From an uncultured bacterium (GTDB lineage: Bacteria; Eisenbacteria; RBG-16-71-46; CAIMUX01; WJJG01), in NCBI GenBank assembly GCA_964573295.1, contig CAZNJE010000021.1:3570-67569 (forward strand): a stretch of DNA of 64,000 nucleotides, given 5' to 3'. A program made the position numbers and the translations under genes. Below, one piece after another: positions 8,433-56,742 of the stretch. Below the pieces are notes generated by a model. It was not told where the DNA came from. It saw only the letters and a program-made list of their open reading frames with translations, and did not search any database. The stretch's first letter is position 1. Each line of letters opens with the position of its first letter.

Positions 8433-8503
8433 CCGATTCCCGGCGACCTTCACATTCCGCTAGACAGAATCTCCTGGGAGCCCAAAAATGGGGCCCGGAG
8501 TAA

Positions 8504-8598
8504 CCGGGATGATGACCGGGATGATGACCGGGGCGATGACCGGGATGATGACCGGGGCGATGACCGGGGCGATGACCGGGGCGATGACCGGGATGATG
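8504..8598. repeat. 12-nt tandem repeat array (ccggg[g]atgatga / ccggggcgatga), about 8 copies, intergenic
   Basis: Direct inspection: ccgggatgatga ccgggatgatga ccggggcgatga ccgggatgatga ccggggcgatga x3 ccgggatgatg. Confidence 0.85.
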
Positions 8599-12397: not shown

Positions 12398-13126
12398 GTG
12401 ATGTTGGACCGTCGTCCAGGCGTACTCTTCGACTTCGACGGTACTCTGGTGGACACCTTCGGCGGTATCGTCGAGGGTGTTCAGCGTATGCGGGCCCGGT
12501 TGGAGGCCGGCCCGCTGCCGTTCGGGGAAGCCAAGCGCCACATCGGCTGGGGCATCAAGAACCTCGTCGGCCAGTGCCATCCCCGGTTGGACGCACTTCG
12601 TCCCGATGAGCTTCCCGCCGACGGCTCGCCGCTGCCGCTGGAGGAAGCACTGCTGCTGGAGACCGTCGAGCTGTTTCGTGCCGAGTACCAGCAATGCCAG
12701 ATGCACGAAACGCACGCCTATGAGGGCATCCCCGATCTGTGCGACGAGCTGGCCGGGAGCGGCGTGGCCCTGGCGGTGGTCAGCAACAAACCCGAGCGTT
12801 TCGTCCGGTACATCATGGCCGCGCTCGGCCTCGCCGACCCGTTTGCCTTGGTTCTGGGCGGCGACTCCCTCCCCACACTGAAGCCGCACCCGGCACCACT
12901 GCTCCACGTCATCGACACACTGACTATCGACCGCAAACGGTGCGCGATGGTGGGCGACAGCGATCTGGACATCCGGGCGGCGCTGGCCGCCCAGCTGCCT
13001 TCTATCGCCGTAGGCTGGGGGATCCAGCCACCCGAGCAATTGCGCCAAGTCCGCCCGACCCACCTGGTCGAGACCACCACCGCCTTGCGAGAGCGGCTAG
13101 GGAGCGTGCTGGATCCATCGAGTTAG
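12398..13126 (+). CDS. HAD-superfamily hydrolase, phosphoglycolate phosphatase-like (Gph family)
   Basis: HAD motif I (LFDFDGTLVDT), motif II (VVSNKPE), motif III/IV (K...MVGDSDLDIRAA). Confidence 0.75.
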   Translation: MMLDRRPGVLFDFDGTLVDTFGGIVEGVQRMRARLEAGPLPFGEAKRHIGWGIKNLVGQCHPRLDALRPDELPADGSPLPLEEALLLETVELFRAEYQQCQMHETHAYEGIPDLCDELAGSGVALAVVSNKPERFVRYIMAALGLADPFALVLGGDSLPTLKPHPAPLLHVIDTLTIDRKRCAMVGDSDLDIRAALAAQLPSIAVGWGIQPPEQLRQVRPTHLVETTTALRERLGSVLDPSS

Positions 13127-13256
13127 GGGCGTCCCCCGCAGCCGGACGGGACGGCTGAGCGCCCATACCTCAACTTGCTGATCTCAACTGGTCAACTGCT
13201 CGATCTCAACAGGTTGATCTCAACTTCTCGATCGCGCCTGGTTGACCTCAGTTGGT

Positions 13257-13475
13257 CTACCTCAACTGGTCGATCACCTCACCATCTTCCATGGGGAAAC
13301 GTCCCAGACTACGCTTGGAGAAAATGAGTTTCCCATCGGCGAGGACCTCAAAGACACCGCCCGAGCTGGGGATGAGTTGCGAATCGATGCCCAGTTCCTT
13401 CCGGATAGCGTCCGCCAAACTGACGGCGCGGGGTTCGTAGTTTCATTCCATGCAGTATTCGATCGAAACCTTCAT
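13257..13475 (-). CDS. SelW/Rdx-family selenoprotein (72 aa) with in-frame UGA = selenocysteine at codon 11 (CxxU redox motif)
   Basis: Minus-strand ATG at 13475 is preceded by AAGGAGGAG. Translation: MKVSIEYCME-U(TGA at 13443-13445)-NYEPRAVSLADAIRKELGIDSQLIPSSGGVFEVLADGKLIFSKRSLGRFPMEDGEVIDQLR. It matches SelW/Rdx hallmarks: YCxxU(G/N)Y at the N-terminus and GxFEVxxxGKLI(F/H)SK core. Compare mammalian SelW (VYCGAUGY...GFFEVMVAGKLIHSKK). A short hairpin lies about 17 nt after the UGA. The ORF track splits this into two unconvincing frames. Confidence 0.7.
13408..13430 (-). other. Candidate bacterial SECIS-like hairpin downstream of the selW UGA
   Basis: mRNA sequence ...GCGCCGUC AGUUU GGCGGACGC... 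forms a 5-bp stem (including one G-U pair) with apical loop AGUUU, starting about 17 nt 3' of the UGA. Folded by eye only. Confidence 0.3.
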
Positions 13476-13630
13476 CCACTCCTCCTTCGGTTCGTCTTGC
13501 TCTCTTGCTCTCTTGCTCTGACGCCGCATGATAACGCACCTGAAATCCATCTACCACTCCCGGCGCCTTTCGGGTCCGGCAATGCTCCGCTCTTCCCTTG
13601 GTCCCAGCGCCGGAGTAGGCTGGTGCCGTC

Positions 13631-14809
13631 ATGACGAACCCAATGCCACAACCTCAACAAAGTCGCGCTTTCGGACGTGTGCTCGTTCTCGGGGCAACCG
13701 GTATGATCGGAGCCCACATCGTGCGCGCCTGTCTCGAGCGCGGCTGGGCTACGCGCGCCCTCGTCCGCGCCACGAGCGACCGGCGCAACTTGGATGCTCT
13801 TCCGGTCCAGATTGCCGAGGGGGATCTGCGCGATCCCGCCTCGATCGCTCGCGCCCTGGAGAACTGCGATCTCTTGCTGCACGCTGCGGCCCCGTATCCG
13901 CGAAGGCATTTCGGCAAAGCCGCGCTGATCGCCTCGGCCCGCGAATCGATGCAGAACCTGCTCGCCACCTGGGCGGCTCATTGCCGCGTTCTGGGACGCG
14001 GGCGAATGGTCTACGTGAGTAGCGTGACGACCCTGAATCCGGTGCGCGACAGTGCGCCCTACTTCGAGCTCAAGCAGATGCTGGAAACGCTGGCGATGGA
14101 AGCCGCAGATCCAGGTAGGACCGGTGCAAGGGGCGGCACCGAGGTGGGCACCAAGGCCCGTGCCAAAGCCAGCTCCGAGGCCGGCTCGGAGGCCCGCTCC
14201 GAGGCCCGCTCCGAGGCCCGCTCCGAGCCCCGCTCCGAGGCCCGCTCCGAGCCCCGCTCCGAGGCCCGCTCGGAGGCCCGTGCCAAGGCCGGCTCCGAGG
14301 CCGGCAAAGACATCGTGGTCGTCAACCCCACATTCTGCATCGACGAGTTCGATACGAATCTGACGACCGCTCAACTCCTCCTGCCCCTCGCGCGGCGTCA
14401 GTTGCCGGCCTACCTGCCCGGCCGGCTCAACGCGGTGGCCACGCGCGACGTGGGCGTAGGCGTGGCGCTCGCCGCCGAGCACGGACATTCGGGATCACGC
14501 TATGTCTTGGGGGGCGAGAACCTCACCAGCGGTGCGCTCCTCGAGCGCTGCGCACGCGTGGCCGGGGTACCCGCACCCCGGCGAACGATGCCGATCCCGC
14601 TGGCCGAGGCTCTGAGCATGGTGACCGAGGTGGTTGCCTATGCAACGGGAACGCGGCCGCTCTTTCCCATGACCGGCATCCGCATGATCAAGCACGGGCA
14701 GGCGGTCGACATCCGCACCACACGCGAAGAGCTCGGCTACGAGCCGAGCTCCCTTGATGAGGCCATCGGCCGGGCCTACGACTGGTACCGGCGCGAGGGG
14801 TGCTTGTAG
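13631..14809 (+). CDS. NAD(P)-dependent epimerase/dehydratase (extended SDR) with an in-frame (SEAR)n low-complexity insertion
   Basis: Rossmann motif (LVLGATGMIGAHIVRA). SDR-e fold throughout. Residues about 175-225 are an approximately 50-aa insert (AKASSEAGSEARSEARSEARSEPRSEARSEPRSEARSEARAKAGSEAG) encoded by a 12-nt tandem repeat array at 14155-14305. Confidence 0.75.
   Translation: MTNPMPQPQQSRAFGRVLVLGATGMIGAHIVRACLERGWATRALVRATSDRRNLDALPVQIAEGDLRDPASIARALENCDLLLHAAAPYPRRHFGKAALIASARESMQNLLATWAAHCRVLGRGRMVYVSSVTTLNPVRDSAPYFELKQMLETLAMEAADPGRTGARGGTEVGTKARAKASSEAGSEARSEARSEARSEPRSEARSEPRSEARSEARAKAGSEAGKDIVVVNPTFCIDEFDTNLTTAQLLLPLARRQLPAYLPGRLNAVATRDVGVGVALAAEHGHSGSRYVLGGENLTSGALLERCARVAGVPAPRRTMPIPLAEALSMVTEVVAYATGTRPLFPMTGIRMIKHGQAVDIRTTREELGYEPSSLDEAIGRAYDWYRREGCL
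14155..14305. repeat. 12-nt tandem repeat (ggcccgctccga, about 10 copies) inside the epimerase CDS, in frame
   Basis: ggcccgctccgaggcccgctccgaggcccgctccgagccccgctccgaggcccgctccgagccccgctccgaggcccgctcggag. Confidence 0.85.
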
Positions 14810-22499: not shown

Positions 22500-24095
22500 A
22501 TGAAGGTCATTCTGGCCGGGCAGAATCTCGACCAATCCATCGTCGCGCGCTTTCGCGCTTACCTCGAGCAGCGGGCTGTGTCGCCTTCGCCGGGTTCGGC
22601 TTCTGCGGACTCCCCAGCCCCCCAGGCTTCCACCGGCCACGCCGGCGGCGGCGTCTCGTCGTCAGAACACCGATCCTTGCGCGGCCTGGATCCGCAGAGC
22701 CTCTCGCCCGAGACCCTATCGGCTGCCTATGCGCGCATCAGTCGTGATCCACATCCGATTCCCGATCTGCGCGCGCAAGCCATCGCCGACGTGACCGCCG
22801 CCAGGAAGTCGAACCAACGTATCATCTTCGGCTTCGGCCACGCGAGTGTGGCCGAACACGCCGTGTTCAACCTCGATATTCTGGACATCTCGCGTATTGC
22901 GATGGAAGCGCTCGAGAGTTCTCGTCTGGCGTCCTACACTGAGAAATCGCAGCGCTACATCACGCTGGATCGTGACTACGTAGTTCCAGAGGAAGTCGCC
23001 GCCGCCGGCTTGGAGCGCCAGTTTCGCGAGCTGATCCGCAAGCAACAGGACCACTATCAAACGGCGCACGAGCGGCTCCTGGCACTCTACCAGCAGAAGC
23101 ACCCCGACCAGTGGGAGAAGCGCAGCGGGCGGCGCGCCCTCGAAGGCGCCGCCAAAGAAGACGCCCGCTATTTCCTTTCTCTGGCGACCACCGCGCAGGT
23201 GGGGGTGACGATGAATGCCCGAACCTTGGAAGCGACGGTGCGCCGTCTGGCAGCCGATCCCCTCCAGGAGTGCCGCCACCTGGCCGAGGCCATTCACGCC
23301 GCCGTCATCGAGGCGGCCCCATCCCTGGTCCGCTACGTCGAAGCCACCGAATACCGGCGGGAAACACCTCCGGCCATCGAACACTGGGTGTGCCACCGAT
23401 GGCCCGCCGATGGCCCCTCCGGGAAAGAATCGAATTCCGAAAGCCCGCCGGCCGCGCGTTTGGTCTTCTCAACACCGAACGGTGACGACATGCTCCTGAC
23501 GGCCCTGGTGGCCGGAAGCTGTGGACGCAGTTGGGCCGACGCCGAAGGCTGGGTTGCCTCACTCGACCAGGACGGCCGGCGTGAACTCGTGCTCGAGAGC
23601 CTGCGCCGTCTGGATGAGCATGCCACGATCCTGCGCCAGTTCGAGATTCCCGAGTTCATCTTCGAACTCATCGCGAGCGCCTCTTGCTTCGCTCAACTCA
23701 AACGTCACCGGCTGGCAACGCTTCTCCCCCAGCCCTACGAGCCGGCGCTGGGCGTGACGATCCCGCCCGCGTTCCGAGAGGCCAGCTTGCTCGGTGAGTA
23801 CCGCGATGTCTGCGCGCACGCCGAAAGCCTGGCCGAGCAGATCCGCTCCCGCCATCGCGATGCGGCCGCCTACATTCTGACCAACGGCCACCGCCGGCGC
23901 GTGATCTTCAAGGCCAATGCCCGCGAGCTCTATCATCTTGCGCGGCTTCGTCTGGACGCCCATGCTCAATGGGACATCCGTCATCTGTCCGAGGAGATGA
24001 TCGGCCTCGCGCGCAAGGCACTCCCTCTGACCATGCTCATGGCCTGCGGCAGGGACCAGTTCCCCGAGCACCGCCGCCGCGTGCTCAGTTCCTGA
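22500..24095 (+). CDS. thyX: Tandem-domain flavin-dependent thymidylate synthase ThyX-like protein (531 aa)
   Basis: Two ThyX-like halves. First: GHASVAEHAVFNLDILDISRIAMEALESSRLASYTEKSQRY (the conserved RHR appears degenerate as SRL). Second: QLKRHRLATLL...ANARELYHLARLRLDAHAQWDIR. The size matches the duplicated-domain ThyX seen in some lineages. Confidence 0.55.
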   Translation: MKVILAGQNLDQSIVARFRAYLEQRAVSPSPGSASADSPAPQASTGHAGGGVSSSEHRSLRGLDPQSLSPETLSAAYARISRDPHPIPDLRAQAIADVTAARKSNQRIIFGFGHASVAEHAVFNLDILDISRIAMEALESSRLASYTEKSQRYITLDRDYVVPEEVAAAGLERQFRELIRKQQDHYQTAHERLLALYQQKHPDQWEKRSGRRALEGAAKEDARYFLSLATTAQVGVTMNARTLEATVRRLAADPLQECRHLAEAIHAAVIEAAPSLVRYVEATEYRRETPPAIEHWVCHRWPADGPSGKESNSESPPAARLVFSTPNGDDMLLTALVAGSCGRSWADAEGWVASLDQDGRRELVLESLRRLDEHATILRQFEIPEFIFELIASASCFAQLKRHRLATLLPQPYEPALGVTIPPAFREASLLGEYRDVCAHAESLAEQIRSRHRDAAAYILTNGHRRRVIFKANARELYHLARLRLDAHAQWDIRHLSEEMIGLARKALPLTMLMACGRDQFPEHRRRVLSS

Positions 24096-34813: not shown

Positions 34814-37800
34814 CTAGAGCTCGTTCCGGTACGCCTCCCGACTGCGATCCGGTGCGGGACCAAAGTCCGGCTCGGCCCGGTCGTATTTCTTGCGGAGATC
34901 CAGAACCTTCTCGATGCCCCGCTCGAGCTGGCTGTCGATACCCTTGGCCAACTCCTGCGGCAGGTTCTCGACCACGATGTCGGGCTCCACGCCCCGGCCC
35001 TCGAGGCCCCAGCCCCGCTCCTCGTCCCACCAGGCGAACTCGGGGAAGGTCATGTACCCCTTATCGATCGACGGACGGAACCCCCGGATGCCGACCACGC
35101 CGCCCCAGGACCGGGTCCCGATGACCGGCGCCAGGTCCAGCAGCTGCACCGCCGCCGGGAAGATGTCGCCGTCGGAACCGGCGCCCTCGTTGGTGAGCAC
35201 CACGAAGGGGCCGTTGAGAACCCGGCTCGGATAGGTGGTCGCAGCCCCGCTGCGCCGACGATCCCAACTGATGATCGTACGCTGCAAGCGCGAGAGGATC
35301 AGCTGGGAAACGAACCCTCCTCCGTTCCAGCGAGCATCCACGATCATCCCTTCCTTGTCGAGCTGTGGATAGTACCAGCGATCGAACTCGACCAGACCCT
35401 GGGTGCCCATGTCGGGAATGTGAACGTAGCCGATCTTGCCGTCGGTCTTCTCGAGCACCTCTTGGCGATTCTGGCGCACCCAGTCGACATAACGCAGGCG
35501 GTGATCGCTCCCCAGCGGCGTTACCACGACGTGGCGGGCCGACTCGATGTCGAGCGTATCGTTCACCGTCAGCATGACCGGCCGGCCGGCCAGATTCTCG
35601 AAATGGGCCTCGAAAGAACGGTCCAAGGAGAAGGGCTGCAGGTTGACCTCGAAGATGTAATCGCCTTCCTTAAGGTTCACCCCTGGTTCTTTGAGCGGAG
35701 ACCGCACGCGATCGGCTTCGTGGCCGCGATAGATGCGCGTGACGCGGAACGCGCCGCCCTCGCGCGCGAAGCGTCCACCCAATAGGCCCGTGGATCGGCG
35801 CGGCACATCGGTGCCGGTGTCTCCACCGCCGACGTAGGTATGGCCGGTCGAGAGTTCGCCGATCATCTCGGCAAGCAGGTCGGCCAAGTCCTGGCGGGTG
35901 GCCAGGCGCGGCAGGAGCTGGGCGTACTGGTCCCGTACCGCTTCCCAGTCGATGCCGTGCATGCCCGGGTCCCAGTAGTGATCCCGCATGTGACGCCAGG
36001 ACTCGAAGTAGATCTGGCGCCATTCCTCCTGCGGATCGAGCTCGATGATAAGATCGCTCAAGTCCAGAGCCGATTCGGACAAATCCCCGGGCGGGGCCGC
36101 CGCACCAACCACGAAGAGCTGGCCGCGGCCTTTCGACACGATGAGTTTGTCCGCCTCGGTCGACAGATCATAGCCGGCCACGCCGCTGACGAAGGTGCTG
36201 GCCTCTTCCTCTTCGAGATCGAATGCCATGAGGTCGTTCGAGGGTCCGCCCCCCTCGCCGGGACCCGGCTCGTTCATCCCCTGCATGGGCCGGGAGAGAT
36301 AGAACAGTTTGCCCGAGGTCGCCGCGAGACCGAAGTAGGTGCCGGCCTCCACCGGAAGCTCCAGATACCGGCCGGCAAGCCCCTCGAAGTCGATCTCGAC
36401 CGGAGTGAGTTCCTCCTCGTCGTCGGTGTCGTCGTCGGCATCGGAGTCGGCATCGGAGTCGGTGTCGGCGTCGCCCCCGGCGTCGGCTTCAGCATCGGCC
36501 TCGGCGTCGCCCCCGGCGTCGGCTTCAGCATCTGCCTCGGCGTCGGCGTCGGCTTCGTCGCCGTCATCAGCGTCCGCACCCTCGGCGTCGGTCTCGGCGT
36601 CCGCGTCGCCGGCCTCCGCGCCGTCCGCGTCATCGGCGTCCTCATCTTCGATGGGCGGCACGCCGGCGGTCTCGGCGAACGGGTTCTCCACGTCCTCGCG
36701 CAGCAGGTACATGTAAGGCCGGCTGGGTTTGACATTGATCGTCTCGAAATCGAAGCCGCCGATCATCGGGTTGATGGTCCGGTTGCTGACGAAGTAGAGA
36801 TACCGGCCGTCGGGATCCCAGGCCGGGTCGTAGTCATCGGTGTAGTCATCGCCAAGGCGGTGGACCTGGTCCTCTTGCGTGTCATAGATGTAGATCGAGG
36901 CGAAGTACTGCTCATTGTTCTTCGAGTAGGCCAGCCAGCGGCCGTCGGGGCTCCACGTGTAGTCGGTGATCTCCGACTGCTCGCAGTAGTCGATCTCCCG
37001 CCGCTCGCCGCCCTCGGCGGGCATCACATACAGGGTGTGGGTCTGGTCCGCGTAGGCGATCCACTTGCCGTCGGTCGAATAGCGCGGCTGGAAGCGGCGG
37101 CCCGCCACGCCTGGGCCCTCGATCACCTCGACCTTGCCCCGTCCCCAGGAGTCGGCGCTGACGAGCTCTTCCTCGCCGCTACGATCGGTGACGTAGAGCA
37201 GTCGTTCGCCTTCGGGATCGAAGATGACCCGATTCTCGCGGGCGCCGCTGCCCCGCGTGATCGGGAGGGTCACGCCCTCTTCGGTCGGAACGGAGAAGAC
37301 CTCCCCACGGGCGACAACCACGGCGCGCTCGCCGTCGGGCGAGAGGGCGAACTCGTCCACATACTGACCCGGATCCGGATAGCGCTTGCGCGTCAGGGTG
37401 CGCTCGCTCGGCAGGTCGAGTTCGATCTCGCGTTCCTCACCGGTCTTGACGTTGTAGAGGTGGACATCGCCGGCCAGGGTGAAGACGATCTGTCCGTCGG
37501 GACCCATCGCAGCCTGCCGGGCATCCCAGGTGTCGAAGGTGGTGTGGCGCTTGCGGTCGGAGCCGTCGGGTTTCATCGACCAGATGTTGCCCGTGCCGCC
37601 CTGATCGCTCAGGAAGTAGATGCGACCGCCGTGCCACATCGGATTGACATCGAGACCATCGAACTCGGTGACACGCCGGTAGTCCTCACGCGTGGGATCG
37701 CCGACCCAGACATCGGGCGCGGTGCCTCCCCGGTAGCGCTTCCAGGTCCCACCGCCCCAGTTGCGCGTGAACGCGTAGCGGCCACTGATCGGGTCGATGT

Positions 37801-38383
37801 CGAGCCAGTTCGCGCGCCCCAGAGGCACGTTGACGACGTCGCCGCCCTCGGGCGGAACGGTGAAGAGCTCGGGGCTCCAGTGAGCGTGGTGACGGAAGCT
37901 GACGAAGATGATCCGGTCACCCTCGGGCGTCCAGCCCACCGGGAAATCGGGGATCGGGTGCCAGGTCAGCCGGCGAGGCTCGCCGCCGGTCGTCGGCACG
38001 ACATAGACGTCGGTGTTGCCGTCATAGATGCCGGAGAAGGCGATCCAGCGCCCGTCGGGGGAGAAGCAGGGGCGGGATTCGTTGCCGACGTGGGAGGTCA
38101 GGCGCCGGGTGCCGGTGCCGTCGGTCTTGGTGAGCCAGAGGTCACCTTCGGCGACGAAGACCACCTGGTCCCCGTGAACGTCGGGCGCACTCAGATAGCC
38201 CGGCTTGGCATCCGCCAGCGGGGCAGCGCTCCACAGCAGAAGCAGCGCCAGGAACGAGCCCATCAGCGAGCCGGTCAATCCGCCGCGCGGGCGGCTACGC
38301 AGGCGGCTACGCGGGTGGTCGTGCAATCGCAAATCCATGTCCAATCCTCCCCCTTGAGATCCAACAATGCGGGGGCGCGCCAC
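34814..38383 (-). CDS. Tricorn-protease homolog (S41-family C-terminal peptidase with PD40/TolB beta-propellers) carrying an approximately 80-aa poly-acidic (D/A/E/G) insertion; start uncertain
   Basis: Signal peptide (MGSFLALLLLWSAAPLADA, internal start about 38263). PD40 repeats (SPDGRWIAFSG..., SPDGERAV..., STDGKWIAY..., SPDGRWLAY...). C-terminal S41 catalytic region (RWNGGGFVSQLIL, TNEGAGSDGDIF, GTRSWGGVVG). Insert DEDADDADGAEAGDADAETDAEGADADDGDEADADAEADAEADAGGDAEADAEADAGGDADTDSDADSDADDDTDDEEE at 36420-36660. Confidence 0.75.
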   Translation of the reverse strand: MARPRIVGSQGGGLDMDLRLHDHPRSRLRSRPRGGLTGSLMGSFLALLLLWSAAPLADAKPGYLSAPDVHGDQVVFVAEGDLWLTKTDGTGTRRLTSHVGNESRPCFSPDGRWIAFSGIYDGNTDVYVVPTTGGEPRRLTWHPIPDFPVGWTPEGDRIIFVSFRHHAHWSPELFTVPPEGGDVVNVPLGRANWLDIDPISGRYAFTRNWGGGTWKRYRGGTAPDVWVGDPTREDYRRVTEFDGLDVNPMWHGGRIYFLSDQGGTGNIWSMKPDGSDRKRHTTFDTWDARQAAMGPDGQIVFTLAGDVHLYNVKTGEEREIELDLPSERTLTRKRYPDPGQYVDEFALSPDGERAVVVARGEVFSVPTEEGVTLPITRGSGARENRVIFDPEGERLLYVTDRSGEEELVSADSWGRGKVEVIEGPGVAGRRFQPRYSTDGKWIAYADQTHTLYVMPAEGGERREIDYCEQSEITDYTWSPDGRWLAYSKNNEQYFASIYIYDTQEDQVHRLGDDYTDDYDPAWDPDGRYLYFVSNRTINPMIGGFDFETINVKPSRPYMYLLREDVENPFAETAGVPPIEDEDADDADGAEAGDADAETDAEGADADDGDEADADAEADAEADAGGDAEADAEADAGGDADTDSDADSDADDDTDDEEELTPVEIDFEGLAGRYLELPVEAGTYFGLAATSGKLFYLSRPMQGMNEPGPGEGGGPSNDLMAFDLEEEEASTFVSGVAGYDLSTEADKLIVSKGRGQLFVVGAAAPPGDLSESALDLSDLIIELDPQEEWRQIYFESWRHMRDHYWDPGMHGIDWEAVRDQYAQLLPRLATRQDLADLLAEMIGELSTGHTYVGGGDTGTDVPRRSTGLLGGRFAREGGAFRVTRIYRGHEADRVRSPLKEPGVNLKEGDYIFEVNLQPFSLDRSFEAHFENLAGRPVMLTVNDTLDIESARHVVVTPLGSDHRLRYVDWVRQNRQEVLEKTDGKIGYVHIPDMGTQGLVEFDRWYYPQLDKEGMIVDARWNGGGFVSQLILSRLQRTIISWDRRRSGAATTYPSRVLNGPFVVLTNEGAGSDGDIFPAAVQLLDLAPVIGTRSWGGVVGIRGFRPSIDKGYMTFPEFAWWDEERGWGLEGRGVEPDIVVENLPQELAKGIDSQLERGIEKVLDLRKKYDRAEPDFGPAPDRSREAYRNEL

Positions 38384-50430: not shown

Positions 50431-50770
50431 GCGCGACTCCTTTCACCGTGACCACAACCTGGCAGCCTGACTCCGCTGACGCTGCAACTGGGTTTCCTAC
50501 CAGCCGAGGAGGTCATTCGCTGGATGTGTGTCGGTGTGAGGTGGGCAAGCGAATGCGCGTCGCCGGATACACTCCTGTACCGCGACGCGCGAGCAACCTG
50601 CACTCCTCCCTGGCAGGTCGTACGCCGAGCATCATAGCCGGAAAGCAGGCAGCCGAAAAGGTCAATCCGGACCGTTCACCCGGCCTCCTGACCCGGCCCG
50701 CTCATTCGCGCTACTTGCTTACAAGTAAAAGTGTTGCAGCCAAGGGCCGTACAAAGAGCTTCACGCCAAG

Positions 50771-50905
50771 GAGTTCGATCCCAGAGTCCGATCCCACAGT
50801 TCGATCCCAGAGTCCGATCCCAGAGTCCGATTCCAGAGTCCGACCCCAGAGTCCGACCCCAGAGTCCGACCCCAGAGTCCGACCCCAGAGTCCGATTCCA
50901 AGAAG
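50771..50905. repeat. 12-nt tandem repeat array (agagtccgaccc / agagtccgatcc), about 11 copies, intergenic
   Basis: gatcccagagtccgatcccacagttcgatcccagagtccgatcccagagtccgattccagagtccgaccccagagtccgaccccagagtccgaccccagagtccgaccccagagtccgattcc. Confidence 0.9.
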
Positions 50906-50999
50906 CTTGACCGCCGCGGACCGGCCCCTCACCCTGAGGCCCTGTTATCCTCACACCCTGCCAGGGTTCAGTCGATTCACGGGCAAGGAGGGAACGGCC

Positions 51000-51521
51000 A
51001 TGAGGCTGACAATAGCGAGCACGTTGGCAAGGACAAAGGCGACTTCGCACCGAGATGGATCGAACGGCACGCTGGGCGGGCTGGCCGCAGCGTTGATGCT
51101 CGGACTGGTGCTACTCCTCACGGCCGGCTGCGGGGGGGGCGACGGTGATGGCGGGAGCGCGAACGGCGACAGGGGCGCGGCGGCCGGTGCCGGCGGGGTC
51201 GAGACCGAGGCGGCGGCGGGCGGTGCCGGCGGGGCCGAGACCGAGGCGGCGGCGGGCGGTGCCGGCGGGGCCGAGACTGAGGCGGCGGCGGGCGGCGCCG
51301 GCGGGGTCGAGACCGTCCAGCTCGCCATCGGGGGCATGTACTGCCAGGGATGCGCCGACGGTATCCAGGCGGCCCTCGCCAAGGCTCCTGGCGTCCGGAG
51401 TTGTTCGCTGAGCTTCGCCGACAGCGTCGCCGTGGTCTCGCTCGAACCGGGCAGCTTGACGGCCGAGGAGCTGATCGGAATCGTCGAAGACGTGGGCTAC
51501 AAGGCGCAGGTGAAGCCGTAG
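51000..51521 (+). CDS. Heavy-metal-associated (HMA, CopZ-like) domain lipoprotein with 3x 13-aa Gly/Ala/Glu repeat linker
   Basis: RBS GGAGGGA. Lipobox LLLTAGC. Repeats AAGGAGG(V/A)ETE x3 (39-nt DNA repeats). C-terminal HMA fold with metal-binding MxCxxC (GGMYCQGCADGIQAAL). Confidence 0.65.
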   Translation: MRLTIASTLARTKATSHRDGSNGTLGGLAAALMLGLVLLLTAGCGGGDGDGGSANGDRGAAAGAGGVETEAAAGGAGGAETEAAAGGAGGAETEAAAGGAGGVETVQLAIGGMYCQGCADGIQAALAKAPGVRSCSLSFADSVAVVSLEPGSLTAEELIGIVEDVGYKAQVKP

Positions 51522-56642: not shown

Positions 56643-56659
56643 GCTCCCCCAACCGAATC

Positions 56660-56742
56660 CAGTTGGGGGTCCAGTCGGGGGTCCAGTCGGAGATCCAGTC
56701 GGGGGTCCAGTCGGAGATCCAGTCGGGGGTCCAGTCGGGGAC
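56660..56742. repeat. 12-nt tandem repeat (tccagtcggggg / tccagtcggaga), about 7 copies, intergenic
   Basis: agttgggggtccagtcgggggtccagtcggagatccagtcgggggtccagtcggagatccagtcgggggtccagtcgggg. Confidence 0.9.

What the first reader, a model, noticed from the sequence alone, without database searches (positions are those of the whole stretch)
13257..13475. Hidden selenoprotein: SelW/Rdx-family gene with in-frame UGA (CxxU) missed by the stop-delimited ORF track
A minus-strand ORF begins with a strong Shine-Dalgarno (AAGGAGGAG-N3-ATG) and encodes MKVSIEYCME-UGA-NYEPRAVSLADAIRKELGIDSQLIPSSGGVFEVLADGKLIFSKRSLGRFPMEDGEVIDQLR. The TGA sits exactly where the selenocysteine (or Cys) of the CxxU/CxxC redox motif of selenoprotein W / Rdx proteins occurs: YC-x-x-U-x-Y, then the highly conserved GxFEVxxxGKLIxSK core. 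Conservation continues seamlessly across the TGA in one frame. That is not expected if the TGA were a real stop, and the upstream 10-codon piece alone is meaningless. A small hairpin about 17 nt downstream could act as a bacterial SECIS. No selA/selB/selD is in the window, so Sec decoding capacity must be encoded elsewhere. The gene is divergent from an SDR epimerase and is flanked by repeat-rich DNA.
Basis: partly seen in the sequence, partly recalled or inferred. Interest (0 to 1): 0.85.

Follow-up and report, generated by a model that had tools for sequence, protein, structure and literature searches.

The report
Bacterial SelW-like selenoprotein gene
This is a real small gene for a selenocysteine-containing redox protein of the well-known bacterial SelW-like (Rdx) family, invisible to stop-to-stop ORF finders because its TGA codon encodes selenocysteine, so it is correct but ordinary.

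Summary
On the minus strand, AAGGAGGAG-N3-ATG (ATG at 13475) opens 10 codons, then TGA (13445-13443), then 61 more codons to TAG (13259-13257).

- **Family match:** with TGA read as Cys, the 72-aa product scores 61.5 bits on Pfam Rdx (cutoff 22.6). It also passes NCBIfam TIGR02174 and NF041051. It aligns without gaps to solved Rdx proteins, with the TGA on the second Cys of their CxxC motif.
- **TGA conservation:** I recovered 82 related loci (80 genomes from many phyla, 2 metagenome contigs). All 82 carry TGA at codon 11, with a conserved MK[VI]SIEYC N-terminus.
- **SECIS hairpin:** a 6-bp hairpin with a G-containing 3-nt loop starts 16 nt after the TGA. It is supported by compensatory changes, including at synonymous third-codon positions.
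- **Genetic code:** TGA ends 12 of 35 domain-supported genes in the window, so the genetic code is standard.
- **Sec machinery:** no selA, selB, selD or tRNA-Sec lies in the window, so decoding capacity in this genome remains untested.

The parts
13479..13487 (-). Shine-Dalgarno sequence AAGGAGGAG, 3 nt upstream of the ATG
   Evidence: Read directly from the sequence. It is identical in the ortholog contig L001. L002 has AAGGAGAT at the same place.
13257..13475 (-). SelW-like (Rdx family) selenoprotein coding sequence: 72 codons including one Sec codon, plus the TAG stop
   Evidence: Translation. Pfam PF10262 gives 61.5 bits and E=9e-17. NF041051 gives 90.7 bits and TIGR02174 gives 53.3 bits. 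PDB relatives are 2FA8 and 2LJK. Against L001 there are 9 synonymous and 5 non-synonymous codon differences, spread on both sides of the TGA.
13452..13454 (-). Cys8 codon (TGC), first residue of the CxxU redox motif
   Evidence: Invariant in all 82 relatives. It aligns with the first Cys of CxxC in Atu0228 and MIEN1.
13443..13445 (-). In-frame TGA, read as the selenocysteine codon (residue 11)
   Evidence: TGA at this codon in 82 of 82 related loci from many phyla. It aligns with the second Cys of CxxC in Cys-form homologs.
13412..13426 (-). SECIS-like hairpin core: 6-bp stem (CCGUCA / UGGCGG) with a 3-nt apical loop GUU (13418-13420). The stem begins 16 nt after the TGA. In this sequence the helix can extend to 13408-13429.
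   Evidence: Single-sequence fold. RNAalifold consensus on 83 sequences predicts the same helix. Pair counts: 88% of cells paired, 59 cells with changes on both sides, 0 of 500 shuffles reach this, and slid controls are far lower. The loop G (column 26) is invariant.
13495..13519 (.). 8-nt tandem repeat (GAGCAAGA on the gene strand, 3.1 copies) in the 5' leader. It is a flanking feature, not part of the gene's mechanism as far as shown.
   Evidence: TRF. L001 has a single copy. The 16-nt difference puts the upstream ATG at 13550 out of frame in L001, which supports 13475 as the true start.
13170..13271 (.). Degenerate tandem array 3' of the gene. Its units resemble the gene's last codons CAGTTGAGGTA. 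It overlaps the last codons of the coding sequence and fills the gap to the convergent HAD gene.
   Evidence: TRF rows with periods 14, 22 and 28 and the sequence itself. The array is absent from the ortholog contig L001.

Best explanation
This is a monocistronic gene for a 72-residue SelW-like (Rdx family) selenoprotein. Translation starts at ATG 13475 behind a strong SD. At codon 11 the UGA is recoded to selenocysteine. The recoding signal is a short hairpin inside the coding sequence (stem from 16 nt after the UGA, small loop with an invariant G), which acts as a bacterial SECIS. In the established bacterial mechanism this element recruits SelB-GTP-Sec-tRNASec to the ribosome. The product carries a C8-x-x-U11 motif at the position of the CxxC redox centre of thioredoxin-like Rdx proteins. 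It most likely works as a small cytoplasmic thiol/selenol oxidoreductase. Shown here: family membership, conservation of the UGA, and conservation with covariation of the hairpin. Inferred: actual Sec insertion in this organism, the fold, the redox activity and its partner or substrate.
For: - **Family scores:** all are above the curated cutoffs, namely Pfam Rdx 61.5 bits (cutoff 22.6), TIGR02174 53.3 bits (34.2) and NF041051 90.7 bits (88).
- **N-terminal contribution:** the 19 residues missing from the stop-delimited ORF add 28 bits to the Pfam score.
- **Solved structures:** gap-free alignment to solved Rdx proteins places the TGA on the second Cys of CTQC (2FA8) and CEPC (2LJK).
- **TGA conservation:** 82 of 82 related loci have TGA at codon 11 with a conserved MK[VI]SIEYC N-terminus. 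The pattern that retrieved them did not include codon 11.
- **Purifying selection:** there are 9 synonymous and 5 non-synonymous codon differences against the closest ortholog, on both sides of the TGA.
- **Hairpin:** RNAalifold predicts it independently. Pair 21-33 joins two synonymous third-codon positions and shows CG 51, UA 14, GC 6, UG 6 and AU 1 among the 81 distinct sequences counted. Protein-level selection cannot explain that pattern.
- **Standard code:** TGA is an ordinary stop in 12 of 35 domain-supported genes of the window.
- **Literature:** bacterial CxxU SelW-like selenoproteins with such SECIS elements are documented (PMC1088965, PMC1794560, PMC2398784).
Against: - No selA, selB or selD was found among 40 large ORFs of the window. 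No tRNA-Sec was found. No second selenoprotein candidate appeared in the unannotated gaps. Sec-decoding capacity of this genome is therefore unproven.
- The hairpin of this sequence taken alone is not significantly more stable than shuffles (z = -1.39). Its support is comparative.
- No biochemical function is established for bacterial SelW-like proteins (PMC1088965 calls the function unclear).
- There is no conserved operon partner. The neighbours differ between the window and the Desulfobulbales-type loci.
Confidence: 0.9

Rival explanations
1. The TGA is a true stop. Either only a 10-residue peptide is made, or the downstream part is translated separately from TTG 13418 as a 53-aa fragment, as stop-delimited ORF callers report it.
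For: ORF finders and public gene calls report exactly such fragments: and P0001 (49 aa) and P0002 (40 aa). No Sec machinery is visible in the window.
Against: The fragment lacks the first strand and the redox motif, and scores 28 bits less on Pfam Rdx. The SD sits before ATG 13475, not before TTG 13418. The 10 codons before the TGA are conserved at the protein level, with synonymous changes, in 82 of 82 relatives across phyla. The start positions of the public fragment calls differ from each other, as expected for gene-calling artefacts.
Confidence: 0.03
2. It is a decaying relic: an intact-looking selenoprotein gene in a genome that recently lost the Sec machinery, or a nonsense-mutated Cys-form gene.
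For: Sec machinery was not found in the 64 kb examined. Loss of the Sec trait and of SelW-like genes in sister lineages is documented (PMC1794560).
Against: A nonsense mutation of a Cys form is excluded, because all 82 relatives have TGA and none has TGY. The closest ortholog (93% amino-acid identity) differs mostly by synonymous changes (9 against 5). It has no change in the hairpin codons and the SD is intact. That pattern indicates ongoing purifying selection on the whole read-through frame.
Confidence: 0.05
3. TGA is reassigned genome-wide (to Trp or Gly, as in genetic codes 4 or 25), so residue 11 is not selenocysteine.
For: Many database homologs are recorded with W at this position (CxxW).
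Against: In the window, 12 of 35 Pfam-supported genes end at TGA, so TGA is a normal stop here. The W entries are best explained by gene callers run with an alternative code. Trp at the second position of a CxxC redox motif makes no chemical sense. The position is Cys in genuine Cys-form homologs. A conserved hairpin directly after the codon is the signature of Sec recoding, not of reassignment.
Confidence: 0.01

Closest known systems
Bacterial SelW-like selenoproteins (CxxU), described by Zhang, Fomenko and Gladyshev 2005 (PMC1088965). NCBIfam TIGR02174 CXXU_selWTH and NF041051; Pfam PF10262 Rdx.
   Same: Same size (about 70-75 aa), same N-terminal CxxU motif, same in-frame UGA followed by a small hairpin with a G in the apical loop, and scores above all three curated cutoffs. 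Like the published family, it is almost always the Sec form: 427 Sec against 56 Cys in GOS (PMC2398784), and 82 of 82 here.
   Different: Nothing of substance. It is a further ortholog from an unidentified 65% GC bacterium. The closest named relative is a Candidatus Eisenbacteria MAG at 67% identity. Its flanks carry lineage-specific tandem repeats.
Cys-form bacterial Rdx proteins with solved structures (Atu0228, PDB 2FA8; also 3DEX, 2OJL, 2OBK, 2OKA, 2P0G)
   Same: Sequence-level homology (E=1.8e-8 to 2FA8) over residues 2-62, with the redox motif in register (CmeU against CtqC) and the GG[VL]FE[VI]xxDG core shared.
   Different: Those proteins have CxxC rather than CxxU, are about 30 residues longer, and need no recoding element.
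Animal selenoprotein W (SELENOW) and MIEN1 (C17orf37, PDB 2LJK)
   Same: Same Rdx domain and the same position of the CxxU or CxxC motif (E=5e-8 to MIEN1). SelW is reported to bind glutathione (PMC1088965).
   Different: Eukaryotic SelW uses a 3'-UTR SECIS of a different architecture and the SBP2/eEFSec machinery. Here the element lies inside the coding sequence immediately after the UGA, as in bacteria.
E. coli fdhF SECIS (the reference bacterial SECIS; from my own knowledge, not tested here)
   Same: A hairpin within the coding sequence shortly after the UGA, with a small apical loop carrying a conserved G followed by U. Here these are G26 and U27 counted from the U of UGA.
   Different: The loop lies about 3 nt further from the UGA than the fdhF G23/U24. 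The stem is shorter and no bulged U is evident. No Rfam model matched.

Membership tests
Rdx / SelW-like family (Pfam PF10262; NCBIfam TIGR02174, NF041051) | Score above the curated HMM cutoffs over most of the model | tested here: met
   PF10262 gives 61.5 bits against 22.6, covering model positions 1-65 of 74. TIGR02174 gives 53.3 against 34.2. NF041051 gives 90.7 against 88, covering positions 1-69 of 70. The query had U replaced by C.
Rdx / SelW-like family (Pfam PF10262; NCBIfam TIGR02174, NF041051) | CxxC or CxxU motif near the N-terminus, directly after the first strand | tested here: met
   C8-M-E-U11 aligns in register with CTQC of 2FA8 and CEPC of 2LJK. It is invariant in 82 relatives.
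Rdx / SelW-like family (Pfam PF10262; NCBIfam TIGR02174, NF041051) | Thioredoxin-like fold | not tested
   This is only inferred from sequence homology to solved Rdx structures.
Bacterial selenoprotein gene (Sec recoding of UGA) | In-frame UGA conserved among orthologs and aligned with Cys in homologs | tested here: met
   82 of 82 loci carry TGA. Cys forms exist, for example P0013 CAPC, P0018 CSAC and P0044 CGAC, as do the PDB Cys forms.
Bacterial selenoprotein gene (Sec recoding of UGA) | Bacterial SECIS: a stem-loop just downstream of the UGA with a small apical loop containing G | tested here: met
   The hairpin occupies columns 20-25 and 29-34, with loop G26-U27-Y28 and G26 invariant. Compensatory changes include synonymous sites, and 0 of 500 shuffles reach the observed covariation. 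bSECISearch itself was not available.
Bacterial selenoprotein gene (Sec recoding of UGA) | selA, selB, selC (tRNA-Sec) and selD present in the same genome | not testable with these tools
   None is present in the 64-kb window. None lies in the extra 1.7 kb recovered from Logan contig L083. The rest of the genome is not available.
Bacterial selenoprotein gene (Sec recoding of UGA) | Selenium actually incorporated at the UGA position | not testable with these tools
   This needs 75Se labelling or mass spectrometry.

The most novel reading that the evidence does not exclude
The most novel reading not excluded concerns the flanks. The lineage-specific short tandem repeats bracketing the gene are an 8-nt x3 array in the 5' leader and a roughly 90-nt array copied from the gene's own last codons at the 3' end. 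Both are absent from a 93%-identical ortholog, which carries a different 8-nt array upstream. They could be hypervariable contingency elements that modulate expression of this selenoprotein, as part of a genome-wide tandem-duplication process in this lineage (about 60 arrays in 64 kb). A second unexcluded reading is that the organism lacks canonical Sec machinery and reads this UGA in another way.
Probability: 0.05. Interest if true: 0.45.

Novelty: new member of a known kind. Interest (0 to 1): 0.15.

Why it matters
The practical point is annotation. Stop-delimited ORF tracks and many public gene callers truncate this gene (49-aa and 40-aa calls) or write Trp at the Sec position. The selenoproteome of uncultured lineages is therefore undercounted. 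The gene also marks its host as a probable selenocysteine user. Biologically it adds nothing new to a family that has been known for two decades and whose function is still unknown.

Tried and rejected
- **Sec machinery:** Pfam scans of 40 large ORFs covering the window found no SelA, SelB or SelD. ARAGORN found no tRNA-Sec.
- **Rfam:** the gathering scan of the window found nothing. I know of no bacterial SECIS model in Rfam, though I did not check this, so the result carries little weight.
- **Second selenoprotein:** a script listed every TGA read-through frame lying mostly outside annotated genes. Only the SelW-like gene gave a sensible protein, so there is no independent evidence of Sec use in the window.
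- **Extending the contig:** exact-protein look-up found one 10-kb Logan contig adding 1.7 kb upstream with no sel genes. It found nothing at the other end.
- **Promoter and terminator scan of 13050-13700:** no sites.
- **Word-indexed protein search with the U-to-C sequence:** only 2 truncated hits.
- **Conserved neighbours:** about 34-35 of the 83 loci, judging by the named examples Desulfobulbales-type, share HD-domain, DtxR-type repressor and RecN neighbours. The window does not, so no functional partner can be inferred.
- **Upstream ATG 13550 as start:** rejected. A 16-nt repeat-number difference puts it out of frame in L001, and all relatives start at MK[VI]SIEYC.
- **Code reassignment:** rejected on stop-codon usage.

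Full report
**Observation.** On the minus strand, AAGGAGGAG (13487-13479) is followed after 3 nt by ATG (13475-13473). Ten codons follow (MKVSIEYCME), then TGA (13445-13443), then 61 sense codons, then TAG (13259-13257). The mechanical ORF list shows only a 53-aa TTG-started fragment and a 35-aa upstream piece. The gene is divergent from an SDR/NmrA-type epimerase gene (13631-14809) and convergent with a HAD hydrolase gene (12398-13126).

**Family.** With the TGA read as Cys, the 72-aa product scores as follows:

| Model | Score (bits) | Cutoff (bits) |
|---|---|---|
| Pfam Rdx PF10262 | 61.5 (E=9e-17) | 22.6 |
| NCBIfam TIGR02174 CXXU_selWTH | 53.3 | 34.2 |
| NCBIfam NF041051 SelT/SelW/SelH family (seleno)protein | 90.7 | 88 |

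The 53-aa fragment alone scores only 33.2 bits on Pfam Rdx. Against solved structures, the product aligns without gaps around the motif to Atu0228 (2FA8, E=1.8e-8) and human MIEN1 (2LJK, E=5e-8). C8 and the TGA position fall on the two cysteines of their CxxC motifs.

**Conservation of the TGA.** The word-indexed protein database held only two relatives. Both were truncated gene calls of 49 and 40 aa. Their contigs both carry the full frame with TGA at codon 11. One comes from a close relative with the same synteny (L001, 93% identity). The other comes from a low-GC organism with different neighbours (L002).

A scan of one genome per species with the N-terminal pattern MK[VI]SIEYC does not constrain codon 11. 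It confirmed 379 relatives, and all 80 best loci have TGA at codon 11. These loci come from Desulfobulbales, Planctomycetota, KSB1, Zixiibacteriota, Eisenbacteria, Krumholzibacteriia, Hydrogenedentota, Neomarinimicrobiota, Acidobacteria, Bacteroidota and others.

The exhaustive representative search with the 61 residues after the TGA found 333 relatives. They fall into three groups:
- fragments starting just after the TGA;
- full-length entries with W at the position, best explained by gene callers run with code 4 or 25;
- a few genuine CxxC forms (P0013, P0018, P0044).

Against L001 the gene shows 9 synonymous and 5 non-synonymous codon differences. Two of the synonymous differences lie before the TGA, and none lies in the hairpin codons.

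**Recoding element.** In every sequence, a hairpin follows the TGA. RNAalifold on the ungapped 83-sequence alignment predicts six pairs (columns 20-25 with 29-34) closing a 3-nt loop G-U-Y, and the loop G is invariant.

In window coordinates the core is 13426-13412, with loop GUU at 13420-13418. The stem starts 16 nt after the TGA.

Counting pairs for a slightly different helix (columns 19-24 with 30-35) gives 88% of cells paired. There are 59 cells changed on both sides, and 0 of 500 shuffles reach the observed covariation. Slid controls are much lower.

Pair 21-33 joins the third position of an invariant Ala codon to the third position of an Ala, Gly or Glu codon. Both sites are synonymous, and the pair covaries (CG 51, UA 14, GC 6, UG 6, AU 1). 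This is RNA-level selection rather than protein-level selection. The single-sequence fold alone is not significant (z = -1.39).

**Genetic code and machinery.** Among 35 Pfam-supported ORFs in the window, stops are TAG 19, TGA 12 and TAA 4. TGA is therefore an ordinary stop and the code is standard. No SelA, SelB or SelD domain was found in 40 large ORFs. No tRNA-Sec was found, and there were no Rfam hits. No second plausible read-through gene appeared in the unannotated gaps. A Logan contig extends the window by only 1.7 kb. The presence of Sec machinery in this genome is the one open criterion.

**Mechanism.**
- *Shown:* family membership, the conserved UGA, and the conserved, covarying hairpin.
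- *Inferred from the established bacterial pathway:* SelB-GTP-Sec-tRNASec binds the hairpin and delivers Sec at UGA 11. This gives a C8-x-x-U11 redox centre on a thioredoxin-like Rdx domain.
- *Inferred function:* a small thiol/selenol oxidoreductase, possibly glutathione-linked as reported for SelW (PMC1088965). No bacterial function is established.

Neighbour analysis gives no conserved partner. About 34-35 loci, judging by the named examples Desulfobulbales-type, share HD-domain, DtxR-type repressor and RecN neighbours, but the window does not.

**Comparison with what is known.** Bacterial CxxU SelW-like selenoproteins were described in 2005. [quoted passage not shown] Sec is thought to be their original form (PMC1794560). 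NCBI has curated models for the family. This gene is therefore a new member of a known kind.

**Verdict.** Novelty and interest are low (0.15). The value lies in correct annotation.

Noticed in passing
whole window, e.g. 8503-8598, 14168-14302, 36417-36608, 50771-50900, 51177-51315, 56658-56740: The window is unusually dense in short tandem repeats. TRF gives 89 rows, roughly 60 separate arrays, in 64 kb, with periods of 6-42 nt. They lie both between genes and inside genes. One example is 12 nt x11 inside the SDR gene, encoding SEAR/SEPR peptide repeats. The close relative L001 lacks the arrays flanking the SelW-like gene but has a different 8-nt array (GCTAGATG) upstream. This suggests a fast, lineage-specific tandem-duplication process.
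   Followed up: partly
13170-13271: The array 3' of the SelW-like gene is built of degenerate copies of (A/C)AGTTGAG(G/A)T, which matches the gene's own last codons CAG TTG AGG TAG. The gene's end appears to have been tandemly duplicated about six times.
   Followed up: partly
35 Pfam-supported ORFs across the window: Stop-codon usage is TAG 19, TGA 12 and TAA 4. TAG as the commonest stop is unusual for a 65% GC genome.
   Followed up: no
37268-37351 (-): ARAGORN calls an 84-nt tRNA-Asp inside the 1189-aa tricorn-protease ORF (34814-38383). Rfam's gathering scan found no tRNA there. It is probably a false positive.
   Followed up: partly
22500-24095 (+): The ThyX (Thy1) ORF is 531 aa with two matched stretches, about twice the usual ThyX length. 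It may be a tandem-domain ThyX or an over-extended ORF.
   Followed up: no
L002 and about 34-35 other loci (e.g. L010, L019, L024, L063): In loci that, judging by the named examples, are Desulfobulbales-type, the SelW-like gene sits in a conserved neighbourhood. An HD-domain protein lies divergently upstream, a DtxR-type iron-dependent repressor lies convergently downstream, and RecN/SMC and ThiI-like genes follow. Whether this reflects function or only relatedness is open.
   Followed up: partly
P0003, P0005, P0006, P0009, P0014 and others: Many public protein entries for this family carry Trp at the Sec position (CxxW). This is apparently because metagenome gene callers used a TGA=Trp code. 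It is a systematic annotation artefact that hides selenoproteins.
   Followed up: partly
50448-51521 (+): The 357-aa ORF matches Pfam only in its last 60 residues (HMA domain). It also contains a 13-nt x10 repeat (50771-50900) whose period is not a multiple of 3, and a 36-nt x3.9 repeat. The real gene is probably much shorter than the ORF.
   Followed up: no
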